In this document: one piece after another, positions 12,648 to 28,204 of the stretch
Layout: each line of letters starts with the position of its first letter
Position numbering within the stretch: the stretch's first letter is position 1
Source: Azorhizobium sp. AG788
GTDB lineage: Bacteria > Pseudomonadota > Alphaproteobacteria > Rhizobiales > Xanthobacteraceae
NCBI GenBank assembly: GCA_943369575.1
Contig: CALRNP020000001.1
Location: 1,129-65,128, forward strand
DNA length: 64,000 nucleotides
Reading direction: 5' to 3'
The notes under the pieces: model-generated
Seen by the model: only the letters and a program-made list of their open reading frames with translations
Databases searched by the model: none
What the model was told of the DNA's origin: nothing
Position numbers and translations under genes: made by a program

Positions 12648-13958
12648 TCAGGCGTCGGCGCGGTAGAGTGGGGTTTCCACATCGATGACCGGCGCCAGGG
12701 CTTCGCCCAGCGCCAGCAGTCGGGCATCGCCATAGCGCGGCGCCACGATCTGGACCCCCACCGGAAGGCCCATGGGGCCGGTGGTGCAGGGAATGCCAAG
12801 GCAGGGCACATGCAGCAGCGTCCAGATGGCGTTGAAGATGTGATTGCCGGTGTTGTAGGTGCCTTCCGGCGCCTCGCCGGGGGAGGCGGGGGTGAGCACC
12901 ACGTCGAAATCCGCATAGAGGGCTTCGAAGGCCCGCCGGCAATCGGCGGCGAGGTTATAGGCGGCGATCAACTGCTCCGAGGTGATGCCCAGGGCATTGG
13001 TGACCCGCTCATGGAAATCGGCGTGCAGGCGATCACCGAACTCCAGGGCCACGTCCAGGAACGAGGCGCGGCCCTCTGCCATCATGATGGTGTTCTGCGC
13101 CTCGAACAGGCCGTCGAATGCCGGAGGCAAGGTCAGCTCCACCAGGGTCGCCCCCGCCTTTGACAGCCGGGCGCAGGCGGCCTCCAGGGCTTTTTCGCCC
13201 GCAGGCTCGATCTTGTGCCAGGATGGCGATTTGCACCAAGCGACCTTCAGCGAGGAGACCTCCGGCACGGCGAGCGCCCCCGCATCGTCCAGGCGGAAGG
13301 CGGTGGCCACCAGGGTGAGGTCCGCCACCGAGCGGCCATACCAGCCGATGGTATCGAGCGAATTGGCATATTGCTTGGCGCCCTCGCGGCTGACCGCGCC
13401 CCAGGTGGGCTTCAGGCCATAGATGCCGTTGAACGAGGCCGGGCGGATGTGCGAGCCGCCGGTCTGGGTGCCGAAGGCAAGCTGTACCTGCCGGTCGCCC
13501 ACCGCGGCGCCCGAACCGGAGGAGGAGCCGCCCGGCGTATGGGTGAAATTCTTGGGGTTGCGGGTGGCAGCGCGGCGGCCGGCGGCGGCGAACTCCAGCG
13601 TGTCGGTTTTGCCCAGGATGACCGCACCGGAGCGCCGGGCAACCCCGACGCAGGCGGCATCGCGGGCCGGACGGTAATCCTGGAACACCGGGGAGTTATA
13701 GGTGGTGGGCATGTCGGCGGTGTCGATCATGTCCTTGACCCCGAACGGAAGCCCATGCAGCGGGCCCATGGGCGGGCGCTTGTCCAGTTCGCGCGCGGCG
13801 GCGATGGCCTGGGCCTTGTTCACATAAAGCCAGGCCTTCACCTGTGGGTCGCGCGCCTCGATGCGCGCCAGGCAGGAGCGGATGAGGGCTTCGCTGGTCA
13901 GCTTGCCATCGCGGATGTGGGCGGCCGCCTCGGCGGCGGTCAGAAAACAGGGTTCCAT
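12648..13958 (-). CDS. Amidase-signature (AS) family amidase, copy A5
   Basis: 436 aa. LPFGVKDM carries the catalytic Lys, [11 protein letters not shown] is the AS Gly/Ser-rich motif and GTQTGGSHIRPAS carries the Ser nucleophile. It is a close tandem paralogue of A4. Confidence 0.9.
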   Translation of the reverse strand: MEPCFLTAAEAAAHIRDGKLTSEALIRSCLARIEARDPQVKAWLYVNKAQAIAAARELDKRPPMGPLHGLPFGVKDMIDTADMPTTYNSPVFQDYRPARDAACVGVARRSGAVILGKTDTLEFAAAGRRAATRNPKNFTHTPGGSSSGSGAAVGDRQVQLAFGTQTGGSHIRPASFNGIYGLKPTWGAVSREGAKQYANSLDTIGWYGRSVADLTLVATAFRLDDAGALAVPEVSSLKVAWCKSPSWHKIEPAGEKALEAACARLSKAGATLVELTLPPAFDGLFEAQNTIMMAEGRASFLDVALEFGDRLHADFHERVTNALGITSEQLIAAYNLAADCRRAFEALYADFDVVLTPASPGEAPEGTYNTGNHIFNAIWTLLHVPCLGIPCTTGPMGLPVGVQIVAPRYGDARLLALGEALAPVIDVETPLYRADA

Positions 13959-13970
13959 GATGGGGCTTTC

Positions 13971-15299
13971 TCAGGCAGAGGCGAGGAGGCTGGCGCGGCT
14001 GGGGGCGAAATCGTCGAGCACGGGCTGCAGCGCCTGCGCCACGGCCAGAAGGCGAGTGTCGGACAGGCGCGGGCCGACGAGCTGGATGCCCACCGGCAGC
14101 CCCAGATCGCCCAGCACCGTGGGGATGGCAACGCAGGGCGTGTGCAGCAGAGTCCACAGGCCGTTGAAGATCCAATCGCCGACCGTGTGCAGGCCCTTGG
14201 GCGCTTCCCCGGTGGCGGCGGGGGCCAGCACCGCATCGAAGCCAGAGGCGATGGCATCGAATTCGCGGCGGCAGATGTCGGCGAAATCGTAGGCCGCGAC
14301 CAGCCGCTGGGGCGTCACGCCGCGTCCATTCTCCACCGTCAGCCGCAATTCGGGATGCATGCCGTCGCGGTCGCGCAGATATTCGTCATAGAGCGCCACC
14401 CGGCCGTCGCCGAACATGATCATGGTGTGGGCTTCCGACAGATCGGCGAAATGCGCCGGCAGCACGATCTCCTCGACGATGGCGCCCGCCCGCTGCAGGC
14501 GCTCCACCGCCGCCGCCATGGCCTGCTTCGCTCCGGCTTCGGCCTTGGCCCAATAGGGCGTTTCGCAATAGCCGATGCGCAGCCCGCGCGGATCGCGCGC
14601 TGCCAGATCCGTGATGCCCGGTAGTTGGAACGCCTGCGCCCCCAGGATCAGGTCATCGACGCTGCGGCCATACCAGCCCACCGTATCGAGGATGGGCGAG
14701 ATCATGTGCACGCCCTCGCGGCTCACCGTGCCCCAGGAGGGCTTGAGGGCGTAGATGCCGTTGAACGAGGCGGGGCGGATATGGGAGCCTGCGGTCTGCG
14801 TGCCGAAGGCGCAGGGTACCTGATAGTCGCCCACCGCCGCCCCGGAGCCCGAGGACGAGCCGCCCGGCGTGTGCGCCAGATTATAGGGATTGCGGCTGGC
14901 GGCCTTGCGGGAGTTGAAGGCGAATTCCACCGTGTCGGTCTTGCCGAGGATGATCCCGCCGTTGTGGCGGACGATAGCGACGCAGGCCGCGTCCCGCGTC
15001 GGCCGATGCTGCTGCCAGGCGGGCGAATTGTAGGTGGTGGGCATGTCGGCGGTGTCCATGATGTCCTTCACACCGAAGGGCAGGCCATGAAGCGGGCCGG
15101 CCGCCGGGCGCTTGTCCCGTTCGCGGGCCTGACGGATGGCCAGATCCGGGTCCACATGCAGCCAGGCCTTCACCGCCGGATCGCGCGCTTCGATGCGGGC
15201 GAGGCAGGAGCGGACCAGGGCCTCGCTGGTGAGGCGGCCGGCCTTCATCTCCGCCGCCGCTTGGGCGGCGGTGAGGAAGCAGGGTTCAATCGTGTTCAT
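13971..15299 (-). CDS. Amidase-signature family amidase, copy A4
   Basis: 442 aa from ATG 15299. Motifs [19 protein letters not shown] and GTQTAGSHIRPAS are present. The start overlaps the stop of the upstream mini-gene as ATGA. The track start at 15548 was rejected because it lies inside upstream genes. Confidence 0.9.
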   Translation of the reverse strand: MNTIEPCFLTAAQAAAEMKAGRLTSEALVRSCLARIEARDPAVKAWLHVDPDLAIRQARERDKRPAAGPLHGLPFGVKDIMDTADMPTTYNSPAWQQHRPTRDAACVAIVRHNGGIILGKTDTVEFAFNSRKAASRNPYNLAHTPGGSSSGSGAAVGDYQVPCAFGTQTAGSHIRPASFNGIYALKPSWGTVSREGVHMISPILDTVGWYGRSVDDLILGAQAFQLPGITDLAARDPRGLRIGYCETPYWAKAEAGAKQAMAAAVERLQRAGAIVEEIVLPAHFADLSEAHTMIMFGDGRVALYDEYLRDRDGMHPELRLTVENGRGVTPQRLVAAYDFADICRREFDAIASGFDAVLAPAATGEAPKGLHTVGDWIFNGLWTLLHTPCVAIPTVLGDLGLPVGIQLVGPRLSDTRLLAVAQALQPVLDDFAPSRASLLASA

Positions 15300-15505
15300 T
15301 TGGGATCTCGCAGGGCGGTCACGGTGAAGAGATGGGCGGGCTCGTCCTCTTCCGAGGGCATGCGCGGCAGCGCGAGGCCGGCCTCGCGTACGGTCTGGGC
15401 CAGTTCGGCGAGGCGGGCGAACTGGTCGTCCGGCAGGCCCGTGAGCCCGTGGCGTGCGGCATAGAGCCGGATCTCGTCGGTGGTGGAGGTCTGGATGTCG
15501 GACAT
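15296..15505 (-). CDS. GatC/AtzG-like small protein, copy G2
   Basis: 69 aa: MSDIQTSTTDEIRLYAARHGLTGLPDDQFARLAELAQTVREAGLALPRMPSEEDEPAHLFTV.... The helical N-terminus and acidic patch followed by EPAHxF resemble GatC and AtzG. SD GGAAGGA is upstream. It sits between two amidase genes. Confidence 0.6.
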   Translation of the reverse strand: MSDIQTSTTDEIRLYAARHGLTGLPDDQFARLAELAQTVREAGLALPRMPSEEDEPAHLFTVTALRDPK

Positions 15506-15520
15506 GCGGGTCCTTCCGGC

Positions 15521-16960
15521 TCAGAGCGCGGGACGGCGATCGCGCCACGGCGTCGCGGATTCATAGGCTTGGGCGATCTGCAACACGGTCGCCTCATCAA
15601 AGAAGCGGCCGACGATTTGCGCATTCAGGGGCAATCCGCCGGTATCATAGCCGGTGCAGATGGAGAGCGCGGGATGGCCGGTGACATTGAACACCGTGGT
15701 GGCGGTATCGGCAGTGAACGGTGTCACCGTGTCCGGTTCATCGAAGCGCGGCGCCACATGAAATGCGCCGGCGATCAGTAGCGCATCGCAGGATCGCACC
15801 AGGGCGTCGGTGGCGGCGACGAGAGTGCGGCGCAGCCGGGTGGCGGCCAGATAGTCCGCCGCGCGCACGGTGAAGCCGCACATCATCTTTTCGCGCAGGG
15901 CCTGACCCATTAGGGCGCTGCGCTCCAGAAAGTCCTGCTCGTGGATGGAATAGGATTCCGACCAATTGATCACCTTGGTCACGGAGCGGTAGTGCGCCAG
16001 CGGCGCCGGCAGGCGCACGTCGCGGATGATCGCCCCCTGACGCTCCAGGATGCGCGCGGCCTCCTCCAGGGCGGCGGCATTGGCGCCATCCAGATCCGCC
16101 CCCTCCGGGCCGAGGTCGCGGACGAAGCCGATCACACGGCCGCGCACGCCGGCATGCAGGGCCTGGCGATAGTCAGGCACCGGCACATGCGCGCTGGAGG
16201 GGTCGTCCGGATCGAAACCGGAGATGGCCTGCATTACGATGGCGCTGTCCTCCACCGTCCAAGTGAGGGGGCCGGTGTGGTCCAGGGTCCAGCAGTTCGG
16301 CAGGCAGTGCGCGCGGCTGACCCGGCCGAAGGTGGCCTTGAAGCCTTGCAGGCCGCAGGCCGCCGCCGGCAGGCGGATGGAGCCGCCGGTATCCGAACCC
16401 AGCGCGAACATGGCGGTTCCGGCGGCCACCGCCGCTCCCGCGCCGGTGGAGGAGCCGCCGGTGAAGCGGGCCAGATCCCAGGGGTTGCGCGCCACCGGGA
16501 ACGGCAGGTCGTGATAGACGCCGCCATTGCCGGTGCCATATTCCCAGGTGTTCAGCTTGCCCAGCAGGATCGCGCCCGCTGCTTCCAGCCGGGCCACGGC
16601 GGTGGAGGTGGTGGTGGCCATATGATCCAGCATCAGCCGCGAGCCGCCCGTGGTGGGGAGTCCGGCCACATGATAATTGTCCTTCACCGCGAACGGGACG
16701 CCGTGTAGCGGCCCCTTCCAACGTCCGGAATTGATCTCTCGCTCAGCAATGCGGGCCGCCGTCAGCGCCCGCTCGGCGGTGACCCTGATATAGCTGTGCA
16801 GGCGGGCATCGACGGCATCGATCCGGGCCAAGAAGGCTTCGGTGAGGGTGACGGGAGACAGGCTGCCGCTGCCGATGAGGCGGGAGGCCTCGGCCACGCT
16901 GAGGAAATGCAGCGGCGTGGCGGCGTGGGAGAATGCCGAGGCTGAACCTGAGGTGTTCAT
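15521..16960 (-). CDS. Amidase-signature family amidase (AtzE/GatA-like subgroup), copy A3
   Basis: 479 aa with VPFAVKDN, GGSSTGAGAAV and GSDTGGSIRLPA. The overall pattern parallels A1 and A2 (NPWDL..., DH.GP..., VED.A...). Confidence 0.9.
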   Translation of the reverse strand: MNTSGSASAFSHAATPLHFLSVAEASRLIGSGSLSPVTLTEAFLARIDAVDARLHSYIRVTAERALTAARIAEREINSGRWKGPLHGVPFAVKDNYHVAGLPTTGGSRLMLDHMATTTSTAVARLEAAGAILLGKLNTWEYGTGNGGVYHDLPFPVARNPWDLARFTGGSSTGAGAAVAAGTAMFALGSDTGGSIRLPAAACGLQGFKATFGRVSRAHCLPNCWTLDHTGPLTWTVEDSAIVMQAISGFDPDDPSSAHVPVPDYRQALHAGVRGRVIGFVRDLGPEGADLDGANAAALEEAARILERQGAIIRDVRLPAPLAHYRSVTKVINWSESYSIHEQDFLERSALMGQALREKMMCGFTVRAADYLAATRLRRTLVAATDALVRSCDALLIAGAFHVAPRFDEPDTVTPFTADTATTVFNVTGHPALSICTGYDTGGLPLNAQIVGRFFDEATVLQIAQAYESATPWRDRRPAL

Positions 16961-16969
16961 GACGACCTT

Positions 16970-18055
16970 TCATTCGGCGGGGGCACGCGCGGGGGTATGA
17001 CCCGGCGGCGATGGCAGCACGCCCGTGGCCCGCAGCAGGCGGAACAGATAGGGCGCGGACAGGATGACCAGGAAGATGCGGACCAGATGGAAGGCGACGA
17101 TGATCGGCACATCGAGATGCAACACCTTGGCCGTGATGCACATTTCGGTGACGCCTCCGGGGGAGGTGGCCAGGATCATGTTGGCTGGGGAGATGCCGGT
17201 GGCATACGCCACCAGCACGCCGACGGTGGCGCATCCGGCCATCAGCACCACCAAGTTCACCAGCGCGGCGGGAATGAACCGCCGCATGCTGTAGATGAGC
17301 GTGCGCTCGAACTGCGAGCCCACCTGGGCGCCGATCAGCACCTGGCCCGCCGCCGAGAGCCAGGGCGGGATGGCGGATAGGTTGGCTTCCGACAGGCCCA
17401 GCACGCAGCCCACCGCCATGGGCCCCAGCAGCCAGGCGTTGCGGAACCGAAACCGCGCCAGCACGGCGGAGAAGGCAAAGCCCGCCGCCAATGTCACCAC
17501 CAGCCCCAACGGGGCGAACGGCAGAACGCCATGGACGTTCGTGCTGTTGCCCCCGGCGCCGAACAGCGTCAGCGTGCTGGGGATGAGGATGGTGACCGAG
17601 ACCACGCGCAGCAATTGCGTCACCGCGATGGGGAGTGGCCGCCCGCCGAACCGTTCCCCGACCATGCTCATTTCGGCGATGCCGCCCGGCACGCTGCAGA
17701 AGAAGGCGGTGACGTGATCCACCCGCGCGGTCTTGGCCAGCAGGAAGGACGCGCCGGCGCCGACCACCAGGGTGGTCCCGCTCGCTGCGATGATCACCGG
17801 CAAGTAGGAGAGCACGGCCATGGCCGCCTCCGGGGTAAAATAGAGTCCCAGCGCGATCCCGAGAACCAGCATGCCGGCGATGCGGCCCTCGTTGGAGCCG
17901 GTCACCGGCAGGCCGAGAAAGGTGGCCAACCCGCTGAAGACGATGGGGCCGATCATCCACGGCAAGGGGGTGCCGATCCAGGCGAACAGGGCGCCGCCGG
18001 CCGCGCTGATGGCAAGGCCGAGCGCGACCCGGCGGAGATAACCGTGTGTGCGCAT
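16970..18055 (-). CDS. AbrB-family integral membrane protein (COG3180, 'putative ammonia monooxygenase' type; probable transporter)
   Basis: 361 aa from ATG 18055. It is highly hydrophobic with an internally duplicated architecture (GTPLPWMIGPIVFSG... and ...NAWLLGPMAVG...; GGIAEMS / GGVTEMC motifs). Confidence 0.7.
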   Translation of the reverse strand: MRTHGYLRRVALGLAISAAGGALFAWIGTPLPWMIGPIVFSGLATFLGLPVTGSNEGRIAGMLVLGIALGLYFTPEAAMAVLSYLPVIIAASGTTLVVGAGASFLLAKTARVDHVTAFFCSVPGGIAEMSMVGERFGGRPLPIAVTQLLRVVSVTILIPSTLTLFGAGGNSTNVHGVLPFAPLGLVVTLAAGFAFSAVLARFRFRNAWLLGPMAVGCVLGLSEANLSAIPPWLSAAGQVLIGAQVGSQFERTLIYSMRRFIPAALVNLVVLMAGCATVGVLVAYATGISPANMILATSPGGVTEMCITAKVLHLDVPIIVAFHLVRIFLVILSAPYLFRLLRATGVLPSPPGHTPARAPAE

Positions 18056-18066
18056 GGGAGGAGTGT

Positions 18067-19086
18067 TCAACTCGCGATCAGCAGCGGCGCCTTCGAAAAG
18101 GCGAGGCCTTCGGCATATTGCAGACAGCGGGCCTGCTGCCCGCCCCCGAGTGGTAGGAGATCCGGTTGCTGGCCGATGCACGGCTCGCGCGCGGCGGCAC
18201 AGCGCGGGGCGAAGGCGCAGCCGGGGGGCAGGTCGGTGAGGTCCGGCGGCGCGCCGGGAATGGGATCGAGCGCCACGCCGCGCATGTCGGCATGGATGGT
18301 CGAGTTCATAAGGCCCTGGGTGTAGGGGTGGCGCGGCTGGTCGATGACCTGTTCCACCGTTCCGGTCTCCACGAACTTGCCCGCGTACATCACCGCCACC
18401 TGGTCCGCGACCTCGCACGCCACCCCCAGATCGTGGGTCACGAAGATGGTGGCCATGCCCAGTTCGCGCTGCAGTTCCCGCAGCAGCAGCAGGATCTGGA
18501 TCTGGACGGTGGCATCAAGCGCGGTGGTGGGCTCGTCGGCCAGCAGCAGCTTGGGCTTGCAGGCGAGTGCCAGGGCGATCATCGCCCGCTGGCGCAGGCC
18601 GCCGGACAATTCGTGCGGATAGGCCTCCAGCCGCCGCTTGGCGGAAGGCACCTGCACCAGTTCCAGCAATTGCAGGGCGCGGGCGTTGGCAGCGCGGAAC
18701 GAGATGCCCTCGTGATAGACCAGGGTTTCGGCGATCTGCTGGCCGATGGTGAACACCGGATCCAGCGCGGTCATGGGCTCCTGGAAGATCATGGAAATCA
18801 GCCCGCCGCGGATGCGGCGCAGCTGGTGCTCCGCCAGGGCCAGCACGTCGATGCCATCCACGCGGATCGCGCCATCCAGCCGCGCGGTAGGCGGAAACAG
18901 GCGCATCAGCGCCCGCATGGTCACGCTCTTGCCCGAGCCGGATTCTCCCAGGATGCAGAGGGAGGAGCCACGATCCAGGGTGAAGGACACGCCATTGACC
19001 ACCGGCACATCCAGGTCGCGGCCGGTGAAGCGGACGGTGAGGTCATTGACCTCGACCAGGGGGGCGGTGATGTCGGGGGCGGTCAA
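18067..19086 (-). CDS. ABC transporter ATP-binding protein (DppD/OppD-like)
   Basis: Walker A GESGSGKS, signature LSGGLRQR, Walker B LLLADEPT and an oligopeptide C-terminal extension. The TTG start at 19086 has SD GGAAGGAGG 6 nt upstream and overlaps the upstream stop as TTGA. Confidence 0.85.
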
Positions 19087-20186
19087 TGCAGGCCTCCTTC
19101 CACCGGCGCGGCGCTGTGGCCGGAGCCGGGGCGATGGGCGTGGCAGGCCACCGGATGGTTTCCGGCACCCCGGATCACGCCAAGGGCGGGCTCGCTCTGC
19201 GCGCACACCGCCTCGGCGATGGGGCAGCGGGTGCGGAAGCGGCAGCCGCTGGGCGGATTGATGGGGTTGGGCGGATCACCGGCCAGCGGTGGCTTGGACA
19301 TGCGCTGGCGCGGGTCCATGGACGGACGCGAGGACAGTAGGGCGCGGGTGTAAGGGTGCTTCGGGGCGCGATAGATCTCGTCCACCGGGCCGACTTCCAC
19401 CGCCTTGCCCAGATACATCACCAGTACGCGGTCGCTGATATATTGCACCACATTGAGGTCGTGGGAGATGAAGATGTAGGTCAGCTCCAGTTTCTGCTTC
19501 AGCTCCTGCAGCAGGTTCAAGACCTGAGCCTCGACGGACTTGTCCAAGGCCGAGACCGCCTCATCCAGGATCAGCAGGCGCGGCCCCATGGTGAGGGCGC
19601 GGGCGATATTGACCCGCTGGCGCTGGCCGCCGGACAATTCGTGCGGATAGCGCTGGGCGAACATGTCTGGCGTCAGGCCCACCATGCGTAGCATGGAGGT
19701 GGTCCGGGTCTTGGCCTCCTTCGCCGGCTTGCCCTGGGCGATGAGGCCGAAGGCGATGGAATCCTCGATGGTCATGCGCGGGTTGAGCGAGGAGTAGGAA
19801 TCTTGGAACACCATCTGCATCTGCCGGCGCAGATCCCGGACCGAGACACCGCGCAGCGCGCCCACTTCATCCCCGTCGAACACGATCTCGCCGGCATCCG
19901 GCGTCATCAGGTGCATGAGCAGGCGCGCGGTCGTGGACTTGCCGCAGCCGGACTCGCCGACGATGCCGAGGGTCTCGCCCTTGTGGACCACCAGATCGAC
20001 CCCATCCACCGCCTGGACCCAGGCTTGCGGGCGCCCCAGCAGGCCGCCGCGGATGGGAAAGTGCTTCTTCAGCCCCTCGACGATAAGCAGCGGCTGCGCC
20101 GGCCCGCCGCGGTCGCGCGGGTCGATGTCATTGGCGACGGCGGTCATGGCGGCACCTCGCGGTTGAGCCGAGCGGAGGAGAGACAT
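19083..20186 (-). CDS. ABC transporter ATP-binding protein (DppF/OppF-like)
   Basis: Walker A GESGCGKS, signature LSGGQRQR and Walker B LLILDEAVS. SD GGGAGGA lies upstream of ATG 20186. Confidence 0.85.
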   Translation of the reverse strand: MSLLRSAQPRGAAMTAVANDIDPRDRGGPAQPLLIVEGLKKHFPIRGGLLGRPQAWVQAVDGVDLVVHKGETLGIVGESGCGKSTTARLLMHLMTPDAGEIVFDGDEVGALRGVSVRDLRRQMQMVFQDSYSSLNPRMTIEDSIAFGLIAQGKPAKEAKTRTTSMLRMVGLTPDMFAQRYPHELSGGQRQRVNIARALTMGPRLLILDEAVSALDKSVEAQVLNLLQELKQKLELTYIFISHDLNVVQYISDRVLVMYLGKAVEVGPVDEIYRAPKHPYTRALLSSRPSMDPRQRMSKPPLAGDPPNPINPPSGCRFRTRCPIAEAVCAQSEPALGVIRGAGNHPVACHAHRPGSGHSAAPVEGGLH

Positions 20187-20196: not shown

Positions 20197-21099
20197 CTAC
20201 TGCTTGACGTTCATGGCGCCGCGCAGGCCGTCGCTCATGAGGTTGAAGCACATGGAGGTGATGAAGATCATCACGCCGGGCAGCACGGCATTGAGCGGCG
20301 CCACATAGATGGACTGGCGCAGCGTGTTGAGCATCAGGCCCCATTCCGGCTCCGGCGGCGTGACGCCGAGACCGAGGAAGGACAGGCCCGCCGCGAGCAC
20401 GATGGAGACGCTGATCAGGCTGGAGGCATAGCTCAGGATCGGGCTCATCACATTGGGCACCACATGGGCGGTGACGATGCGCCAGTTGGCGGCGCCGGTG
20501 GCGCGGGCAGCCTCGATGAAATCCTGCGCGCGCATCTGCGTCGCCACGCTTTCCGCCACGCGGGCGATGGGCGGGATGAACACCAGGGTCAGGGAGAAGA
20601 TAGTGTTGCCGACACCGGCCCCGAGCACGCCGGAAATGGCCACCGCCAGGAGCACGGATGGGAAGGCGTAGAATACGTCGATGACGCGCATGATCACCAT
20701 GTTCACGGCGCCGCCCACATAGCCCGCGATCACGCCCAAGGTGCCGCCGATGGCGGTGGCCAGGATCACCGGCGCAAACCCCATGAACAGCGACAGTCGG
20801 CCGCCATAGATCAGCCGCGAGAGCAGGTCGCGGCCGAGTTCGTCGGTACCGAGCCAGTAGCGGGCATCGCCGGGGGCGATCAGCCGCCGCGCCATGCTGG
20901 TGCGATAGGGATCATGGGGGGCGACCCACGGTGCGAAGATGGCGGCCAGGAGGATGAGCATCAGCACGGCGAAGCACACCAGGCTCACCGGGTCGTGCAT
21001 CAGGCGGCGCAGCACATTGCGCCAGAAGCTGCGCGTGGCCGGGCGCTTGCCCTTGGCGGGGGCGCCGGAGCTGGCGAGGGCGATGGAGGGTTGCGACAT
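20197..21099 (-). CDS. ABC transporter permease (DppC/OppC-like)
   Basis: 300 aa, multi-pass, with the binding-protein-dependent transport EAA-type loop (FIEAARATGA). Confidence 0.9.
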   Translation of the reverse strand: MSQPSIALASSGAPAKGKRPATRSFWRNVLRRLMHDPVSLVCFAVLMLILLAAIFAPWVAPHDPYRTSMARRLIAPGDARYWLGTDELGRDLLSRLIYGGRLSLFMGFAPVILATAIGGTLGVIAGYVGGAVNMVIMRVIDVFYAFPSVLLAVAISGVLGAGVGNTIFSLTLVFIPPIARVAESVATQMRAQDFIEAARATGAANWRIVTAHVVPNVMSPILSYASSLISVSIVLAAGLSFLGLGVTPPEPEWGLMLNTLRQSIYVAPLNAVLPGVMIFITSMCFNLMSDGLRGAMNVKQ

Positions 21100-21111
21100 G
21101 AAAGGCTCCAG

Positions 21112-22065
21112 TCAGGCGCGCTTGATGCGGGGATCGACGGCGGTCTGCACCACATCGACGACGAGGTTGATCAGGACGAAGAACATGGCCAGCACCAGGA
21201 TCGTGCCCTGAAGCACCGGCAGATCGCGGGTGAAAATGGCGTTGTTCAAGAGAAAGCCGGTGCCGGGCCAGGAGAACACGGTCTCCACCAGAATTGAGCC
21301 ACCGAGCAATTGCGCCAGCTGCAGGCCCATCACCGCCAGCACTGCGGGCAGGGCGTTCTTGACCACATGGACGAAAATACGCCGGCCGGGCAGCCCCTTG
21401 GCCTGGAGCGTCTGCATGAAGTCCTGCTGGCGCACCTCGGCCACGGTGCCACGCACCGAGCGGGCGATGATGCCGGCCGGGATCACCGCCAGGGTCAGCG
21501 CCGGAAGGATGAGATATTGCAGGCTGTCCCAGCCGAAGCCGAAGGTGCCGGAGCCGCCTTCGCCCATGCCCGTGGCGGGCAAAAGATTGAGGTTGACCGC
21601 GAAGATCACCATCAGGACCATGCCGAGCCAGTAATGGGGAATGGACACGCCGGCGATGGACGCCGCCGTGACGATCCGGTCCGCCGGTTTGCCCACGAGA
21701 TAGCCGGACACGACGCCGGAGACGCAGCCCAGCACGAAGCCGAACAGCACGGCGGCGGACGCCAGGGTCAGTGTATTGACCAGAGCGGGTATGACTTCCG
21801 CCATCACCGGGCGCTGGGTCATGATGGATTCGCCGAAATCCCCCTGCGCCACATGGCCCAGCCATTTGAGATATTGCACCGGCAACGGTCGGTCGAAGCC
21901 GTAGGCGGTGCGGATCTGCGCCACGCGCTCGGGCGAAGCCCCCTCGGGAATGATCGCATTCAGCGGATCGCCCGGCGCAATGTGGATCAGCGCGAAGCAC
22001 ACCATCGAGACGCCCATGGCGATGGGGATGGTGTAGAGGATGCGGCGCAGCACATAGATCAGCAT
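21112..22065 (-). CDS. ABC transporter permease (DppB/OppB-like)
   Basis: 317 aa. The N-terminus MLIYVLRRILYTIPIAMGVSMVCFALIHIAPGDP is typical of DppB/OppB permeases. Confidence 0.9.
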   Translation of the reverse strand: MLIYVLRRILYTIPIAMGVSMVCFALIHIAPGDPLNAIIPEGASPERVAQIRTAYGFDRPLPVQYLKWLGHVAQGDFGESIMTQRPVMAEVIPALVNTLTLASAAVLFGFVLGCVSGVVSGYLVGKPADRIVTAASIAGVSIPHYWLGMVLMVIFAVNLNLLPATGMGEGGSGTFGFGWDSLQYLILPALTLAVIPAGIIARSVRGTVAEVRQQDFMQTLQAKGLPGRRIFVHVVKNALPAVLAVMGLQLAQLLGGSILVETVFSWPGTGFLLNNAIFTRDLPVLQGTILVLAMFFVLINLVVDVVQTAVDPRIKRA

Positions 22066-22173: not shown

Positions 22174-23811
22174 CTATTCGACGGTGACGGGCGTCAGATC
22201 CTGGAACCAGCTCTGGGCCTGGACGAAGCCCTTCACATTCGGCCGCATGGCGCGGGGATTGAGGTCGTGCACCACCCAGATCCACATGGCCTCATCGACG
22301 ATGTGGCTGTGCAATTCGGCCAGGATCTTGTTCTGCTCGGCGGGGTCGAACGCCGCCTTGGCCTTGAGCGACAGCTCATCGGTCTTGGCGTCCTTGAAGT
22401 CGCCCCAGTTGAAGCCGCCCGGCACCTTGGCGAAGGAGGCTGCGGTGCCGATCAGGCCAATGTCTGGGTCCCAATAGGCCCAGCTGTTGTTGATGCCGTG
22501 CCGGCCCTTGTTCTCCGGCGCCCAGGCCCCGAGGCGGCGGCGGGCGCGCAGGGCCTCCCAGTCCAGCACCTCGAATTCCAGGTCGATGCCCACGTCCTTG
22601 AAGTTCTCCTTGATGAACTCGTTCATGGGCAGGGGCAGCATCTGCCCCGAGCCGGACGGGGAGATGATGAACTTGGCCTTCACCGGCTTGTCGGGGCCGT
22701 AGCCCGCTTCCTTCAGCAGCTTCTTGGCCCCTTCGGGATCGTATTTGATCTCGAAGGTGGGCTTGCCGAACCAGGGATGCTTTTCGTCCACCATGCCCTT
22801 GGCCGGGGCGGCGAGGCCGCCCAGCAGCTTCACCAGCCCCTCGCGATCGATGGCGAGGTTGGCGGCCTTGCGCACGCGGACGTCCTTGAACGGCGAATCC
22901 TCCAGGAAGGAGAGCTGGTAGGGCCAGACATGGGGATAGAGATTGGTGACGATCTGCATCTTCTGCGACTTGAGGCGCGGCACCGCGTCCGGCGGCGGCG
23001 CCTCGATCCAGTCCACCTGGCCCGACAGCAGCGCGGCGACGCGGGTGTTGGCGTCGGGGATGGGCAGCAGCACCAGCCGCTCCGACTTGGGGATGCGGGT
23101 CTTGTCCCAGTGATTGGGGTTGCGGACCATCTCCGCCCGCTCGCGCGGCTTGAAGGATTCGAGAATCCATGGCCCGGTGCCGGAGGGTTTTTCGGCGAAC
23201 TTGCTCCAGTCCTTGCCAAGATCCTCCCAGCGCTTGGGGCTGGACATGAACAGGCCGGCAAGATTGTAGGGCAGGACCGCATCCACCCGCTTGGTAATGA
23301 CCTCCACCGTATAGTCGTCGATCTTGCGCCAGGAGCCGATGTTCGCGTCATAGGAGGCGGCCTGATTGGCCTGCGCCTGGTCGAACTGCGGTGCATCGGT
23401 CTTCATCAGCTTGTCGAAGTTCCACACCACCGCATCGGCGTTGAACTCGGAGCCGTCATGGAATTTCACCCCCTGCCGCAACTTGAAAGTCCAGATCTTC
23501 TGGTCCTTGGGGTCGACGATCCAGCTCTCGGCAAGGTCCGGAATGACCTGCGCCGCCTTGTCCGCCTTGGACAGGTCCCAGCGGGTGAGGCCGTCATAGA
23601 GCGTGATGCCCAGGAAGCGGATGCCTTCCGCGCCCTGGCTTGGCTGGCCGGTGGTGAGGGGAATGTCGGCGGCGGTCATGGCCACCCGCAGAACGCCCGG
23701 CTTGCTTTGCGCCTGAGCCGGCTCCAGGCCCAGTCCCAGCCCGGTAGCCGTCAGCGACACCGCCGTCAGCGATACCCCCGAAAGCAGCTTCATAAACGAA
23801 CGTCTGTTCAT
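22174..23811 (-). CDS. ABC transporter substrate-binding protein, family 5 (DppA/OppA/NikA-like)
   Basis: 545 aa with a signal peptide (MNRRSFMKLLSGVSLTAVSLTATGLGLGLEPAQA). The family-5 pattern is present (...LRQGVKFHDGSEFNADAVVWNF..., GTGPW...). Confidence 0.9.
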   Translation of the reverse strand: MNRRSFMKLLSGVSLTAVSLTATGLGLGLEPAQAQSKPGVLRVAMTAADIPLTTGQPSQGAEGIRFLGITLYDGLTRWDLSKADKAAQVIPDLAESWIVDPKDQKIWTFKLRQGVKFHDGSEFNADAVVWNFDKLMKTDAPQFDQAQANQAASYDANIGSWRKIDDYTVEVITKRVDAVLPYNLAGLFMSSPKRWEDLGKDWSKFAEKPSGTGPWILESFKPRERAEMVRNPNHWDKTRIPKSERLVLLPIPDANTRVAALLSGQVDWIEAPPPDAVPRLKSQKMQIVTNLYPHVWPYQLSFLEDSPFKDVRVRKAANLAIDREGLVKLLGGLAAPAKGMVDEKHPWFGKPTFEIKYDPEGAKKLLKEAGYGPDKPVKAKFIISPSGSGQMLPLPMNEFIKENFKDVGIDLEFEVLDWEALRARRRLGAWAPENKGRHGINNSWAYWDPDIGLIGTAASFAKVPGGFNWGDFKDAKTDELSLKAKAAFDPAEQNKILAELHSHIVDEAMWIWVVHDLNPRAMRPNVKGFVQAQSWFQDLTPVTVE

Positions 23812-23892: not shown

Positions 23893-25323
23893 TCATTGCG
23901 CGGCCAGGGCTTGCGCTGGCGCGTCGATCTCGGGCCGCCGGTGGCGGAATTGGGTGGCCCGCTCAAAGGCGTGCCCCAGGCGCAGCACCAGGGCATCCTC
24001 GCCCGGCCGGCCCGCAAGCTGCATGCCCAGCGGCAGACCGGCGGCGTCGAACCCGTTGCAAAGGGCAAGGGCAGGTTGGCCGGTCAGGTTGAATTGCGCG
24101 GTCAGGGAGGGCGTCTTCGCCCCGAAGAAGGTGGGCGGCTCGTCGGGCAGCAACTCCGGCGCCGGATGGGCGCTGCCGGCGGTGAGCAGGATGTCCACAT
24201 TCTTCATCACGGCGAAGGTGATGGCGGTGAGCTCGGCCCGCGCCCGCATGGCCTGCACATAGTCATCCGCCCGCAGCAGGGCGCCGGCGAGGATGCGGAA
24301 GCGCATGCTGCGGCCAAAATCCCGCGGCCGGGTGCGCAGATCGTGCTCATGCAGCGTGAAGATTTCCGCGGCGGTCAGCGGCATCTTGGAGTCGGTGAAG
24401 GTCCGCAGGCTCGGCAGGCTCACCTCCGAGACGATGCAGCCCAGGCGCCGAAAGGTCGCGATGCTCGCATCCATGGCGGCAATCACCGCCGGGTCGGCCT
24501 CCAGCTCGTCTTCATACCAGTGCCGTACCACGCCGATGCGCAGCCCTGCCACCGGCGCATTCAGGCCGGCGGCATAGTCCTCCGCTGGCAGATCCAGCGA
24601 GCCGGGATCGCCTGGATCGTAGCCGGCCATGACCTTGAGCATCAGGGCGCAATCCTCCACCGTCCAGGCCATCGGCCCGCAATGATCGAAGGAATAGGAA
24701 TTCGGCTGCACCCCGTAGCGGCTAACCAAGCCATAGGTGGGCTTGAGGCCGGCGATGCCGCACACGCTGGCCGGCATGCGGATGGAGCCACCCGTGTCGC
24801 TGCCCGTGGCTGCCGGACACAGGCCGGCGGCAATGGACGCGCCGGCACCGCTGGATGAGCCCATGGGCGAGCGCGAGAGGTCCCAGGGATTGCGGGCCGG
24901 CGGCCAGGGGAGGTCGAACGAGGGGCCGCCCATGGCGAATTCCCAGGTGGCCTGCTTGCCCAGCAGCACGCCGCCGCCCGCCCGCAGCCGCGCCTGCACG
25001 GCGCTGTCCTGCGTCGGCACATGGGTTGCCAGCAGCTTGGAGTGCGCCGTCGTCAACAGGCCGGCGGTGTCATAGATGTCCTTCAGGCCATAGGGGATGC
25101 CCTGCATGGGGCTGGTGTCGATGCCCTGCGCGAACAGGCGCTCCGCCGCACGGGCCTCGTCCAGCGCCCGCTCCGGCGTCAGGGTGATGAAGCTGTTCAG
25201 CGTGCTGTCCAGCGCCGCGATGCGGGCGAGATAGGCTTGGGTGAGTTCCACCGGAGAGAGCGTGCGGGCACGGAACCGGCGCCCGGCCTCGGCAATCGTC
25301 AGCTCGTGCAGGGGCGTGCCCAT
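23893..25323 (-). CDS. Amidase-signature family amidase (AtzE/GatA-like subgroup), copy A2
   Basis: 476 aa from ATG 25323, with IPYGLKDI, MGSSSGAGASI and GSDTGGSIRMPA. It is strongly similar along its whole length to A1 ([43 protein letters not shown]). Confidence 0.9.
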   Translation of the reverse strand: MGTPLHELTIAEAGRRFRARTLSPVELTQAYLARIAALDSTLNSFITLTPERALDEARAAERLFAQGIDTSPMQGIPYGLKDIYDTAGLLTTAHSKLLATHVPTQDSAVQARLRAGGGVLLGKQATWEFAMGGPSFDLPWPPARNPWDLSRSPMGSSSGAGASIAAGLCPAATGSDTGGSIRMPASVCGIAGLKPTYGLVSRYGVQPNSYSFDHCGPMAWTVEDCALMLKVMAGYDPGDPGSLDLPAEDYAAGLNAPVAGLRIGVVRHWYEDELEADPAVIAAMDASIATFRRLGCIVSEVSLPSLRTFTDSKMPLTAAEIFTLHEHDLRTRPRDFGRSMRFRILAGALLRADDYVQAMRARAELTAITFAVMKNVDILLTAGSAHPAPELLPDEPPTFFGAKTPSLTAQFNLTGQPALALCNGFDAAGLPLGMQLAGRPGEDALVLRLGHAFERATQFRHRRPEIDAPAQALAAQ

Positions 25324-25327
25324 GGGC

Positions 25328-25546
25328 TCAGTCTTCCCGCGGCATGAATTTGCGGGGATCGAACACATGGGCGGGCTCGTCGGCGCGGTCACGTCCGCGT
25401 CGCAGCCGCATCAGCATGGGCTCCACGTTGCCATATGCCTGGACCAGTTCCTCGAACAGGTCCGGGGGCAGATCGAGGCCGGCGTTGCGGGCCAGGATGG
25501 CGATCTCCTCGCGGGTGGCGGGCCGTGGCGGAACGGTGGTGGCCAT
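25328..25546 (-). CDS. GatC/AtzG-like small protein, copy G1
   Basis: 72 aa: MATTVPPRPATREEIAILARNAGLDLPPDLFEELVQAYGNVEPMLMRLRRGRDRADEPAHVFDP.... This is a GatC-like layout. SD AGGGAG is upstream. It lies 15 nt after the A1 stop and 4 nt before the A2 start. Confidence 0.6.
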   Translation of the reverse strand: MATTVPPRPATREEIAILARNAGLDLPPDLFEELVQAYGNVEPMLMRLRRGRDRADEPAHVFDPRKFMPRED

Positions 25547-25561
25547 GGTCGTGAGCTCCCT

Positions 25562-27010
25562 TCAGGCGAGGTGGGGCTTGGCGAGATGCCAGGAGGTGAA
25601 CCTCTGGTAGGCATCGCCGGCGCGCAGCACGGTGGCCTCATCAAAGGGGCGCCCGGCGATCTGCAGCGAGAGGGGCAGGCCCGTGGACGAAAAACCGCAG
25701 GGCAGGGCCAGGGCGGGCATGCCGGTGAGGCTGAAGGGCATGGTCACCAACTGGCGCTTCTTGAAGAAGTCCACGCCCTCCGGATCGGCAGGGTCGGCCG
25801 GCGCCAGCCAGCCGGCAGTGACGAAGAGATCGAAGCGGGCGAACTGCGCCATCAGGCGGGTGCTCAGCTCCGCGCGCCAGCGCATGGCCTGGACATAGTC
25901 TTCGGCGCGCACCAGCCCGCCCACCATGACCCGGCTTCGCAGCAGCTTGCTGAAGTCGCGCGGCCGAGTGCGCAAATCCTGTTCGTGCACCGAGAACAGC
26001 TCGGAAATGGAGATGGTGGTCTTGGCGTCCACATAGTCGCGTAGCGGATCGAGGGTCACGGGCTCAACGATGGCGCCGAGATCGCTCAGAACCTCCACGG
26101 CGGCATCTACGGCGGCGATCACCTCGTCGGTGGCGTCCTCTTCATACCAATGACGCACGAGGCCGATGCGCAGGCCCCGGATCGATCCGGTGAGGCCGGC
26201 GGCATAATCTGCCACCGGCGTGTCGATGGAGCCGGGGTCGCCGGGATCATATCCGGCGCAGGCACCGAGCATGAGCGCGCAATCCTCCGCCGAGCGGGCC
26301 ATTGGGCCGCAATGGTCGATGGAAAAGGTGTTCGGATGCACGCCGCGGCGGCTGACCCGGCCATAGGTGGGCTTGAGGCCGGTGATGCCGCACATGGCGG
26401 CGGGCCAGCGGATGGAGCCACCCGTATCGGTGCCGATGGCTGCCGGCACGAACCGCGCGCCCACCGCCGCGCCAGACCCGGACGAGGATCCGCCGGGCAG
26501 ATAGTCCCGGTCCCACGGGTTGCGCGCGGGCGGCCAGGGCAGATCCCAGGACGGGCCGCCGATGGCGAATTCGAAGGTGGAGGTCTTGCCGATCAGAACG
26601 CCTCCGGCCGCTTCCAGCTTTTGCGCAACGATGGCGCTGTGGTTCGGGATGCGGTCGGCGAAGATCCTGGAATGGGAGGAGGACAGGATGCCTGCGGTAT
26701 CGACATTATCCTTCAAAGCATAGGGGATACCGTGAAACGGGCCCCGGTCCTCGCCCTGGGCCAGTTCCGCCTCTGCCCGGCGCGCCTGGGTCAGGGCGGT
26801 TTCCGCGGTTACGGTGATGAAGCTGTTGAGGGCGCCGTCCAGCCGCGCAATCCGCTCCAGGCAGGCGGTGGCGACCTCGACCGGAGAGACTGTTCCGGCA
26901 CGCATCAAGCGGCCGAGGTCCGCGATGCCCAGATCGCTCAAGCCAATGTCGCCGGGGCTACGATCACCGATGCCGCTGTCTTCCTGTGCTGCAGATTGGG
27001 CAATCGACAT
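25562..27010 (-). CDS. Amidase-signature family amidase (AtzE/GatA-like subgroup), copy A1
   Basis: [19 protein letters not shown] and [12 protein letters not shown] are present. The start is uncertain: ATG 27010 was chosen, the track start is 27142, and neither has a strong SD. Confidence 0.85.
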
Positions 27011-27411
27011 CTGTGCGCCCCGATCATTGCCGACGGATTGGATACAATTAATCGGGCCCTGTCTCACCGCCTGCGAGCCATGCCTGCGCTTGCCTTCGCA
27101 ATCCACATGCCAAGCCATGCGGGGGTGCAGCGAAGTGGGCAAAAATCTTACTAAGTAGTTGAAATATATGTAATTAAATTTTACGCGCCCGCATCAGCGT
27201 TTGGGCGTATTTGCGAATGCCTGCGTAGGTTGCATAGCTAAATCAGCCACCACACCCAAGGTGCCCAATCCTGCCGCAAGGGTGTGCGACGTGCGGAAAA
27301 GTGTGCCTAATCACACGTCAGATTGGGGCAAACATGGAGCCTAAGTGGCTGTTAAATCGAAATCTGTAGGTCTTTTTGGCTCTCGAAGCCTGTTTGTGCC
27401 GCCTCTTGAAG

Positions 27412-27421
27412 TTGTGTACAA
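27412..27421. promoter_or_regulatory. TTGTGTACAA (TGTACA core palindrome), candidate GntR/FadR-type operator
   Basis: It lies in the 483-bp divergent region between amidase A1 and the GntR gene, about 70 bp upstream of the GntR start. FadR-subfamily operators usually contain GT...AC palindromes. A second inverted repeat, GTGTG-N6-CACAC, is at 27301-27316. Confidence 0.25.
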
Positions 27422-27493
27422 AATGGGCATGGGTGTCGCCGCAGCGATGTCAGGGCGGATCGAGCCCGGTTTCCCTAGTCGGGAGGGCGTTTC

Positions 27494-28204
27494 ATGGTGA
27501 CGCGGGCGGAAACCGTTACAAAGCAATTGCGCACGGCCATATTGGAAGGCGGGTACGCGCCAGGGGCCCGGCTCAACGAGATGGCGCTGGCAGAGGCCAT
27601 GGCGGTCTCCCGTACGCCCATTCGGGCGGCGCTCAGCGTGCTCTTTGCTGAGGGCTTGCTCGATTACGAACCGAACTGCGGTTATGTGGTTCGGCGGATT
27701 TCGCTCAATGATGCCGCCCATATCTATACGGTGCGGGCCTCCCTGGAGGGGTTGGCCGCCCGTCTGGCTGCGGAAATCGGTCTCGCCGACATGGAGCGCG
27801 CCCGCTTTCAGGCTACACTGGACGAGATGGAGCACCTCGTGTCGGGCCAGGACTGGGAGGCCGAACAGCAGGAGCGGTGGGGTGCGTTGAACATCGCCTT
27901 TCACGGCATGATCTGCGCCGCGACCCAGAACAATTATCTTGCCGCCTCGATCCAGCGCACCCGCACATTGCCGGTGCTAACCGAGCGGGGACTGAAGACC
28001 TTCGCGGCGGAGCGGGCCGTGGTCTGGTGGGATCGGGCGGCCTATCGCCGCTCACAGGATGACCACCTCGACATTGGCGACGCGATCCTGGCACGCCAAG
28101 GCACCCGCGCCGAAGCGGTGATGCGCGAACACATCGAGCGATCGGGCCGGCTGATCAACCAGAAGCTTGCGATCCGGTCGGAGGCCTTGCTCGCTCTGCC
28201 GTAG
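27494..28204 (+). CDS. GntR-family transcriptional regulator (FadR/FCD subfamily)
   Basis: wHTH LRTAILEGGYAPGARLNEMALAEAMAVSRTPIRAALSVLFAEGLLDY plus a helical FCD C-domain. SD GGGAGGG is 6 nt upstream. Confidence 0.85.
   Translation: MVTRAETVTKQLRTAILEGGYAPGARLNEMALAEAMAVSRTPIRAALSVLFAEGLLDYEPNCGYVVRRISLNDAAHIYTVRASLEGLAARLAAEIGLADMERARFQATLDEMEHLVSGQDWEAEQQERWGALNIAFHGMICAATQNNYLAASIQRTRTLPVLTERGLKTFAAERAVVWWDRAAYRRSQDDHLDIGDAILARQGTRAEAVMREHIERSGRLINQKLAIRSEALLALP

What the first reader, a model, noticed from the sequence alone, without database searches (positions are those of the whole stretch)
23893..27010. Module 1: two paralogous AtzE/GatA-like amidases flanking one GatC-like mini-gene
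A1 and A2 align by eye over their full length ([10 protein letters not shown], GLKPTYGxVSRxGVxPNxxSxDHCGPMA, [17 protein letters not shown], LRIGxVRHWYE, [12 protein letters not shown], YVQAMRxRAEL). They bracket the 72-aa G1 with spacers of 15 nt and 4 nt. In GatCAB and AtzEG one small subunit binds one amidase subunit. A single mini-subunit gene between two paralogous partners raises the question of whether it serves both (alternative heteromers) or only one.
Basis: partly seen in the sequence, partly recalled or inferred. Interest (0 to 1): 0.65.

Follow-up and report, generated by a model that had tools for sequence, protein, structure and literature searches.

The report
Two amidases sharing one AtzG-like subunit
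Two related amide-splitting enzymes in an Azorhizobium nutrient-uptake operon flank one tiny gene that is a distant, unannotated relative of the helper subunits AtzG and GatC, and other genomes suggest this helper can work with either enzyme.

Summary
On the minus strand lie amidase A1 (27010-25562, 482 aa), mini-gene G1 (25546-25328, 72 aa) and amidase A2 (25323-23893, 476 aa). The spacers are 15 and 4 nt, and A1 and A2 are 55% identical (E 4e-179).

G1 is a real, conserved gene. It has 99 homologue clusters, 513 family clusters at 50% identity, and dN/dS of 0.11-0.35. No Pfam, NCBIfam or PDB sequence search recognises it. A profile-profile comparison links its family to AtzG (probability 94.6%, E 6.7e-8; shuffled controls E >= 0.035). 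The eight best Foldseek matches of its AlphaFold model are all GatC chains, although none is individually significant.

A1-G1-A2 recurs in 8 of 31 genome loci. Nine loci keep A1-G1 without A2, and one keeps G1-A2 without A1. Natural amidase-G fusion proteins exist. Stand-alone A-then-G and G-then-A pairs occur on plasmids.

Best reading: G1 is a non-catalytic AtzG/GatC-type subunit shared by both paralogues, inside a GntR-controlled ABC-import and catabolic operon for an unknown amide. No binding was tested. It is a new variant of a known kind and moderately interesting.

The parts
27494..28204 (+). Divergently transcribed GntR/FCD-family regulator, the likely repressor of the operon.
   Evidence: Pfam GntR and FCD domains. 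It is conserved in the same position in L001-L005 and L008.
27011..27493 (.). Intergenic control region between the regulator and A1. It contains an AT-rich stretch at about 27150-27230 and a TTGTACACAA element near the regulator start.
   Evidence: Read directly from the sequence. No function was tested.
25562..27010 (-). A1, a GatA/AtzE-like amidase-signature enzyme of 482 aa. It keeps the Lys / cis-Ser / Ser motif positions ([15 protein letters not shown]).
   Evidence: In the tree its clade always lies immediately upstream of G1.
25328..25546 (-). G1, a 72-aa AtzG/GatC-like mini-subunit with two helices, an extended tail and an invariant DEPAH motif.
23893..25323 (-). A2, a paralogue of A1 (55% identity, 476 aa) with the triad motifs intact.
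   Evidence: Its clade always lies immediately downstream of G1.
22174..23811 (-). Periplasmic substrate-binding protein of the Dpp/Opp/Nik type (SBP_bac_5).
   Evidence: It follows the amidase module in nearly all related loci.
20197..22065 (-). Two ABC permease genes (22065-21112 and 21099-20197).
18067..20186 (-). Two ABC ATPase genes with oligo_HPY C-terminal domains (20186-19083, and the ORF 19206-18067). The start of the second gene is uncertain.
16970..18100 (-). AbrB-duplication membrane protein lying between the two amidase modules. Its start is approximate.
11931..16960 (-). Module 2. A3 amidase (16960-15521), a 15-nt spacer, then G2 (15505-15296, 69 aa). The G2 stop overlaps the A4 start as ATGA. 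Then A4 amidase (15299-13971), A5 amidase (13958-12648) and an isochorismatase-family hydrolase (12620-11931).

Best explanation
G1 is a non-catalytic small subunit of the AtzG/GatC kind. It belongs to a large, so far unannotated subfamily. I infer that it binds GatA/AtzE-like amidases and is needed for their folding, solubility and assembly, as AtzG is for AtzE.

In this Azorhizobium operon the single G1 gene most likely supplies both flanking paralogues. A1 and A2 both keep the Ser-cisSer-Lys catalytic motifs. They would form A1-G1 and A2-G1 heteromers, possibly mixed tetramers. The two enzymes probably act on different amide bonds, or on successive steps, of a nitrogen compound that the co-transcribed Dpp/Opp-type ABC transporter imports under control of the divergent GntR/FCD regulator.

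Shown here:
- the gene arrangement and the A1/A2 paralogy
- purifying selection on G1
- homology of the G family to AtzG
- recurrence of each pairing in other genomes
- natural amidase-G fusion proteins

Inferred, not shown:
- physical binding of G1 to either amidase
- stoichiometry of any complex
- dependence of A1 or A2 on G1
- the substrate
For: 1. Homology to AtzG. hhalign of 101 G-family members against an 8-sequence AtzG family gives probability 94.6%, E 6.7e-8, over 56 collinear columns. With G2 placed first the result is 94.8%. Reversed and 20 column-shuffled controls give probability <= 1.5% and E >= 0.035. The motif DEPAH-V-F-x-P-x-x-F in G1 matches EDE(L/P)AEIY-x-P-A-P-F in AtzG.

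2. Fold. The AlphaFold2 model of G1 has pLDDT 89 and consists of helix, helix and an extended tail. Foldseek ranks 1-8 among 350,542 PDB chains are all GatC, and AtzG (6c62_C) is rank 16.

3. The partner type fits. The closest solved relatives of A1 are GatA and AtzE, the two amidases known to carry such a subunit.

4. Tight linkage. In 31 genome loci and 2 plasmids, every G gene whose flanks are held abuts an amidase of the A1/A2/A3 clade (not checkable in L031 and L048). Most spacers run from -13 to +33 nt.

5. G1 works with A1. Nine loci keep A1-G1 with no A2. These include Bosea thiooxidans, whereas its congener B. spartocytisi has A1-G1-A2. Natural in-frame fusions of amidase, a linker of about 30-45 aa, and G exist in at least two lineages. 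The P0267 group is A1-like: 54-59% identical to A1 against 39-46% to A2.

6. G1 works with A2. Locus L017 keeps an orthologous G1 (84% identity) followed 3 nt later by A2, with no trace of A1. More distant relatives (L020, L024, L030, L046, L047 and a Paraburkholderia plasmid) have only G followed by an A2-like amidase. That is the gene order of atzG-atzE.

7. In the G tree, orthologues from A1-G, G-A2 and A1-G-A2 loci interleave. The same G1 therefore survives loss of either amidase.

8. Both A1 and A2 keep the catalytic Lys, cis-Ser and Ser motif positions when aligned with AtzE.

9. AtzG is non-catalytic, forms an obligate heterotetramer with AtzE, and AtzE is insoluble without it (PMC6219798).
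Against: - No binding or co-folding test could be run.
- The Foldseek E-values are individually non-significant (0.24-3.7).
- The G2 model gave GatC only at ranks 3 and 10, among unrelated helical proteins.
- Support for a G1-A2 partnership without A1 among close orthologues rests on one MAG locus (L017). The other G-then-A cases are distant relatives that branch outside the A1/A2 split.
- A2 has been lost repeatedly (9 loci), so it may be an accessory enzyme that does not need G1.
- Whether genomes lacking A2 or A1 at this locus carry a copy elsewhere was not checked.
- The substrate is unknown. All amidases score below every curated NCBIfam cut-off.
Confidence: 0.6

Rival explanations
1. G1 is the dedicated subunit of the upstream amidase A1 only. 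A2 is a later-added, G-independent paralogue that happens to sit after G1.
For: A1-G1 is the most conserved pair, found in about 20 loci, and it survives loss of A2 in 9 of them. The Aminobacter plasmid pAA02 has only an amidase followed by G, with a 4-nt overlap. The closest natural fusions are A1-type. Module 2 repeats the order A3 then G2 with the same 15-nt spacer.
Against: L017 keeps G1 at 84% identity with only A2 next to it. G followed by an A2-like amidase is a common stand-alone arrangement in more distant relatives and is the canonical atzG-atzE order. The G1-A2 spacer is -13 to +5 nt in most loci that carry a core A2; two hyphomicrobial loci (L007, L011) have 44-173 nt. A2 is the sister clade of A1, within the amidase group that is associated with G.
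Confidence: 0.25
2. G1 physically bridges the two amidases into one A1-G1-A2 complex, as GatC belts GatA to GatB. This would allow two successive hydrolytic steps to be channelled.
For: Amidase-G-amidase sandwiches recur with different downstream amidases. There are 8 A1-G1-A2 loci, 2 A5-G-A2-like loci and 1 A1-G1-A5 locus. A3-G2-A4/A5 occurs in the window and in 4 loci. G2 and A4 overlap by ATGA. GatC is the structural precedent.
Against: G1 (72 aa) is the size of AtzG (68 aa), which binds only AtzE. It is shorter than the GatC chains in the PDB (83-99 residues). Pairs with a single amidase, and fusions with a single amidase, are frequent and evidently sufficient. Nothing here tests contact between two amidases.
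Confidence: 0.1
3. G1 is not an amidase subunit. It could be a small regulator, or a conserved ORF with an unrelated role that merely travels with the operon.
For: No curated family recognises it. The structural matches are individually non-significant.
Against: The profile-profile link to AtzG holds up against clean controls. G is strictly adjacent to A1/A2/A3-clade amidases in very different operon contexts. Natural in-frame fusions to the amidase C-terminus exist.
Confidence: 0.05

Closest known systems
AtzE-AtzG, the 1-carboxybiuret hydrolase of Pseudomonas sp. ADP (PDB 6c62/6c6g)
   Same: A GatA-like Ser-cisSer-Lys amidase has an adjacent gene for a non-catalytic protein of about 70 aa. 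The G family and the AtzG family are homologous at profile level (probability 94.6%). The sizes are similar (72 against 68 aa). The G1-to-A2 order and the tiny spacer mirror atzG-atzE, which has a 2-nt spacer. The setting is catabolic and concerns nitrogen compounds (PMC6219798).
   Different: G1 does not reach the Pfam AtzG-like (PF13318) threshold. A1 and A2 score 286-305 bits against AtzE family cut-offs of 425-461. No atzD, atzH or atzF genes are nearby. There is one G gene for two flanking amidase paralogues. The order A then G, and A-G fusions, are common in this family.
GatC-GatA of the GatCAB tRNA-dependent amidotransferase
   Same: The best structural matches of the G1 model are GatC chains. 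The best solved relatives of A1 are GatA. The N-terminal helix aligns in register with S. aureus GatC (E 0.045).
   Different: No gatB is present and the context is unrelated to tRNA. G1 is shorter than the GatC chains (83-99 residues). A1 and A2 score below the GatA equivalog cut-off (285-303 against 481 bits). The genes sit in an ABC-transporter operon.
atzG-atzE-atzH clusters of Proteobacteria (PMC6219798)
   Same: These are widespread pairs of a small subunit and an amidase. They lie next to ABC transporters and further amidases and are thought to catabolise nitrogen compounds.
   Different: Those clusters keep the order G-E-H and carry a DUF3225/HpxZ-type AtzH. No AtzH-like gene is adjacent to the module here. 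The small subunit here belongs to a different, unannotated sequence family.

Membership tests
Amidase signature family (Pfam PF01425) | Full-length match above the gathering score | tested here: met
   A1 scores 351 bits and A2 338 bits against a cut-off of 27. The matches cover profile positions 1-445 of 445.
Amidase signature family (Pfam PF01425) | Ser-cisSer-Lys catalytic triad positions | tested here: met
   In an alignment with AtzE, A1 has LKD, GGSSSGS and GGSIR. A2 has LKD, MGSSSGA and GGSIR. The triad positions were assigned by motif from general knowledge of the family, not from a structure.
AtzE family amidohydrolase (TIGR02715 / NF006631) | Score above the curated cut-off | tested here: not met
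   A1 scores 305.6 and 305.0, and A2 scores 285.9 and 286.0, against cut-offs of 425.75 and 461.
GatA (TIGR00132) | Score above the curated cut-off | tested here: not met
   A1 scores 302.9 and A2 284.9 against a cut-off of 481.1.
GatA (TIGR00132) | A partner gatB gene | tested here: not met
   No gatB-like gene was found among the window ORFs I scanned or next to the module in the related loci. Not every window ORF was scanned.
AtzG-like (Pfam PF13318, formerly DUF4089) | Match above the gathering score (24 bits) | tested here: not met
   G1 gave no hit. G2 scored 13.1 bits, E 0.13. Three of 25 family members matched at E >= 0.035, and 1 of 101 at E 0.008.
AtzG-like (Pfam PF13318, formerly DUF4089) | Remote homology to bona fide AtzG | tested here: met
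   hhalign gives probability 94.6%, E 6.7e-8 and 56 aligned columns. Controls give E >= 0.035.
AtzG-like (Pfam PF13318, formerly DUF4089) | Forms an obligate complex with its amidase and is needed for the amidase to be soluble | not testable with these tools
   Only indirect support is available: strict adjacency and natural fusions.
GatC (Pfam PF02686) | Sequence match to the family | tested here: not met
   No Pfam hit. A profile search of the PDB finds S. aureus GatC only at E 0.045.
GatC (Pfam PF02686) | GatC-like fold (two helices and an extended tail) | tested here: inconclusive
   For the G1 model, Foldseek ranks 1-8 are all GatC, but with E 0.24-1.7 and TM 0.34-0.50. For the G2 model, GatC appears only at ranks 3 and 10.

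The most novel reading that the evidence does not exclude
One G1 polypeptide ties two different amidases (A1 with A2; and in module 2, A3 with A4/A5) into a single hetero-complex. This would re-use the way GatC belts GatA to GatB, so that a di- or poly-amide is hydrolysed in two channelled steps. It would be a 'two amidases, one belt' architecture not described for amidase-signature enzymes.
Probability: 0.1. Interest if true: 0.7.

Novelty: new variant of a known kind. Interest (0 to 1): 0.42.

Why it matters
AtzG was described in 2018 as a vestige of GatC that AtzE cannot do without. This finding shows a much larger sister family of such mini-subunits: 513 clusters at 50% identity, labelled 'hypothetical protein' (a few carry stray, unrelated names) and with no Pfam domain on record for those listed. 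They sit next to GatA/AtzE-like amidases in soil Alpha- and Betaproteobacteria.

This has a practical consequence. Amidases of this clade will probably be insoluble or inactive if they are cloned without the neighbouring 65-75-aa ORF.

The family also offers a natural experiment on subunit sharing. The same small subunit occurs with the upstream paralogue, with the downstream paralogue, with both, or fused to one. That makes it directly testable how paralogous enzymes share or partition an obligate partner after duplication.

Tried and rejected
- Direct recognition of G1 failed. Pfam, NCBIfam and a phmmer search of the PDB gave nothing meaningful. A 25-sequence profile against the PDB gave only noise, with GatC at E 1.2.
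- hhalign against the single AtzG sequence was collinear but weak (probability 11%). It became convincing only with an AtzG family alignment.
- A tblastn search of plasmids for AtzG relatives gave too few sequences (7 records). I therefore used the metagenome scan.
- I considered stop-codon read-through or a programmed A1-G1 fusion, because A1/G1 and A3/G2 are both in frame with 15-nt spacers. I rejected it: the frame relation is 0, 1 or 2 across orthologous loci.
I did not submit an artificial fusion. The tool returns no PAE or coordinates, and G1 alone already reaches pLDDT 89, so the result could not discriminate between the hypotheses.
- P0329 and P0340 look like fusions but have garbled amidase C-termini. 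I treat them as frameshift artefacts.
- Long ORFs joining the amidase and G in L009 and L025 lie in a different frame from the amidase. They are chance ORFs in high-GC DNA.
- The G2 model did not reproduce the clean set of GatC hits.
- The JBC 2018 AtzEG paper is not in the library.
- Four look-ups of distant G-family members gave only contigs shorter than 1.4 kb.
Full report
**What is there**

The window is Azorhizobium DNA. Locus L001 from Azorhizobium sp. AG788 carries the same genes at 95-99% protein identity.

On the minus strand, downstream of a divergent GntR/FCD regulator (27494-28204), lie the following genes:
- amidase A1, 27010-25562, 482 aa
- a 15-nt spacer containing an AGGGAG ribosome-binding site
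- G1, 25546-25328, 72 aa
- a 4-nt spacer
- amidase A2, 25323-23893, 476 aa
- an SBP_bac_5 binding protein, two permeases and two ATPases of a Dpp/Opp/Nik-type ABC importer

No terminator-like site lies on that strand between A1 and the transporter genes. The whole set reads as one operon.

A1 and A2 are 55% identical over 462 residues (E 4e-179). Both are full-length amidase-signature proteins. When aligned with AtzE, both keep the Lys, cis-Ser and nucleophile-Ser motif positions.

**Is G1 a gene?**

Yes, for these reasons:
- It has 99 homologue clusters at 58-99% identity. They come from Azorhizobium, Bosea, Bradyrhizobium, Methylobacterium and hyphomicrobial MAGs.
- It has eleven invariant positions, including an R-A-D-E-P-A-H-x-F-x-P motif.
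- Against 13 orthologues, dN/dS is 0.11-0.35, with dS near or above 1.
- A profile of the G1 and G2 families finds 513 clusters (at 50% identity) among 1.84 billion representative proteins. Nearly all are 57-130 aa long.

**What is G1?**

Ordinary annotation tools do not recognise it:
- Pfam and NCBIfam give no hit.
- Pfam AtzG-like (PF13318) is touched only weakly by a few family members.
- The best PDB sequence hit of the family profile to a relevant protein is S. aureus GatC at E 0.045, aligned in register at the N-terminus.

I took atzG from plasmid pADP-1, where it lies 2 nt upstream of atzE. I then collected seven further AtzG-like sequences: one from a Pseudomonas putida plasmid and six from metagenome contigs.

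- hhalign of 101 G-family members against this AtzG family gives probability 94.6%, E 6.7e-8, over 56 collinear columns covering almost the whole protein.
- The reversed AtzG alignment and 20 column-shuffled versions give probability <= 1.5% and E 0.035-0.66.

An AlphaFold2 model of G1 (pLDDT 89.4) has two helices (residues 12-21 and 28-46) followed by an extended tail. In a Foldseek search of 350,542 PDB chains, ranks 1-8 are all GatC chains, and AtzG (6c62_C) is rank 16. The individual E-values (0.24-3.7) are not significant, so this result is supportive only.

A G2 model gave GatC only at ranks 3 and 10. That test is inconclusive.

The closest solved relatives of A1 are GatA and AtzE. These are the two amidases known to carry such a subunit.

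I conclude that G1 is a distant AtzG/GatC-type small subunit. It is not a member of Pfam's AtzG-like family at that family's own threshold. A1 and A2 are not AtzE or GatA equivalogs either, because their scores fall well below the curated cut-offs.

**Which amidase does G1 serve?**

I fetched 31 genome loci that encode G relatives, mapped all operon proteins onto them and built a tree of the 58 amidases. The tree has five groups:
- A1, always immediately upstream of G1
- A2, always immediately downstream of G1
- a basal 'A2-like' group, also downstream of G
- A3, upstream of G2
- A4/A5, a different amidase clade

The arrangements found are:

| Arrangement | Loci |
|---|---|
| A1-G1-A2 | 8 loci, plus the window |
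| A1-G1 directly followed by the binding protein (no A2) | 9 loci |
| G1-A2 with no A1 remnant | L017 (G1 84% identical, 3-nt spacer) |
| G followed by an A2-like amidase only | L020, L024, L030 |
| A5-G-A2-like | L021, L022 |
| A1-G1-A5 | L023 |

In the G tree, orthologues from the three main arrangements interleave. For example, Bosea spartocytisi (A1-G1-A2) is sister to Bosea thiooxidans (A1-G1), and L017 is nested among the triplet loci. The same G1 therefore persists, well conserved, after loss of either amidase.

Stand-alone pairs occur elsewhere:
- Aminobacter aminovorans pAA02 has an amidase followed by G with a 4-nt overlap and nothing else related.
- A Paraburkholderia plasmid and two short metagenome contigs have G followed by an A2-like amidase.

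The family also contains natural in-frame fusions. These join the amidase C-terminus, a linker of about 30-45 residues, and a G domain (P0190, P0216 and P0255; P0266, P0267, P0341 and P0344).
- The P0267 group is A1-like: 54-59% identical to A1 against 39-46% to A2.
- P0267 is cut only by a contig end, and the next gene lies on the other strand.
- P0341 and P0339 sit on long contigs. Each is split by a single frameshift, and together the pieces span about 560 codons.

Fusion of adjacent genes is classical evidence that the two products interact physically.

The fusions and the nine A2-less loci show that G1 works with the A1-type enzyme. L017, the distant G-then-A pairs and the atzG-atzE precedent indicate that it also works with A2-type enzymes. 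The most economical reading for this window is one shared subunit for two paralogous catalytic subunits. I put this at about 0.6.

The main rival is that only A1 depends on G1 (0.25). Close-range support for G1 with A2 alone rests on a single MAG, and A2 is clearly dispensable in many lineages.

**Mechanism proposed**

The GntR/FCD regulator releases the operon when the substrate or an intermediate is present. The ABC system imports an amide- or ureido-containing compound. A1-G1 and A2-G1 complexes then hydrolyse amide bonds through the Ser-cisSer-Lys triad. By analogy with AtzEG, these complexes would be alpha2-beta2 heterotetramers (PMC6219798). G1 contributes no catalytic residue. It would occupy the GatC/AtzG groove and so allow folding and assembly.

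The homology, gene linkage, fusions and catalytic motifs are shown here. Binding, stoichiometry, dependence on G1 and the substrate are inferred or unknown. No curated family assigns a substrate.

**The second module**

The window holds a second instance of the theme. It runs A3, a 15-nt spacer, G2, an ATGA stop/start overlap, A4, A5 and an isochorismatase-family hydrolase.

G2 is 36% identical to G1 (E 9e-7) and has its own orthologues. A3-G2-A4/A5 recurs in L006, L014, L016 and L017. Here the downstream amidase belongs to a different clade.

This keeps alive a more novel possibility: that G bridges two different amidases, as GatC bridges GatA and GatB. I rate it at about 0.1. Single-amidase pairs and single-amidase fusions are common, and G1 is the size of AtzG rather than of GatC.

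**Novelty and verdict**

The kind of system is known: a GatA-like amidase with a GatC-derived mini-subunit (AtzEG; PMC6219798). The following are new:
- a large, unannotated sister family of the small subunit, detectable only by profile-profile or fold comparison
- the common reversed order (amidase then G) and natural fusions
- one small-subunit gene sandwiched between two amidases, with comparative evidence that it can partner with either

I found no paper describing this family. I classify it as a new variant of a known kind, with moderate interest (0.42). Its most useful consequence is practical: amidases of this clade should be expressed together with the adjacent 65-75-aa ORF.

Noticed in passing
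window 11931-16960 (minus strand): A second amidase and mini-gene module lies here: A3, a 15-nt spacer, G2 (69 aa), A4, A5 and an isochorismatase-family hydrolase. The G2 stop and the A4 start overlap as ATGA. A4 and A5 belong to a different amidase clade, about 30% identical to A1-A3.
   Followed up: partly
P0190, P0216, P0255, P0266, P0267, P0341, P0344, P0345; loci L035, L037:7142-8825, L051:5637-7320: Natural in-frame fusions of a GatA/AtzE-like amidase with a C-terminal G domain, joined by a linker of about 30-45 residues. On the two long nanopore contigs the gene is split by a single frameshift.
   Followed up: partly
P0124 (2558 aa), P0167 (2596 aa), P0248 (2021 aa): Three very long proteins match the N-terminal helix region of the G profile (positions about 3-32) many times over, with 14, 8 and 5 matched stretches. 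They may be unrelated repeat proteins. I did not look at them.
   Followed up: no
window 16970-18100 (minus strand): An AbrB-duplication membrane protein (PF05145 / TIGR03082) sits between the ABC transporter and module 2. It is conserved in that position in L001, L002, L004, L005 and L008. Its role is unknown.
   Followed up: no
window 27150-27230 and about 27405-27415: The regulator-A1 intergenic region contains a markedly AT-rich stretch and a TTGTACACAA element close to the GntR start. These are candidate promoter and operator sequences.
   Followed up: no
L003:10738-14062: Bosea spartocytisi has two tandem copies of the SBP_bac_5 binding-protein gene after A2 (84% and 76% identity to the window protein).
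   Followed up: no
L007:8793-9446 and L011:10859-11509: In two loci (a Hyphomicrobiaceae MAG, L011, and an uncultured alphaproteobacterial MAG, L007), an isochorismatase-family gene homologous to the one in module 2 sits directly between A2 and the binding protein. This links the two modules functionally.
   Followed up: no
window 28305-36634 (minus strand): Upstream of the regulator is a run of oxidoreductase genes: a GMC oxidoreductase, an FAD-linked oxidase, a fused E1 alpha/beta dehydrogenase, an SDR, a shikimate-dehydrogenase-like protein and an aldehyde dehydrogenase. A Liv-type ABC system follows at 37341-41561.
   Followed up: no
window 1-12000 compared with 12001-26000: GC content rises from about 0.60-0.64 to 0.65-0.69 across the amidase/ABC region. 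This may mark a compositional island.
   Followed up: no
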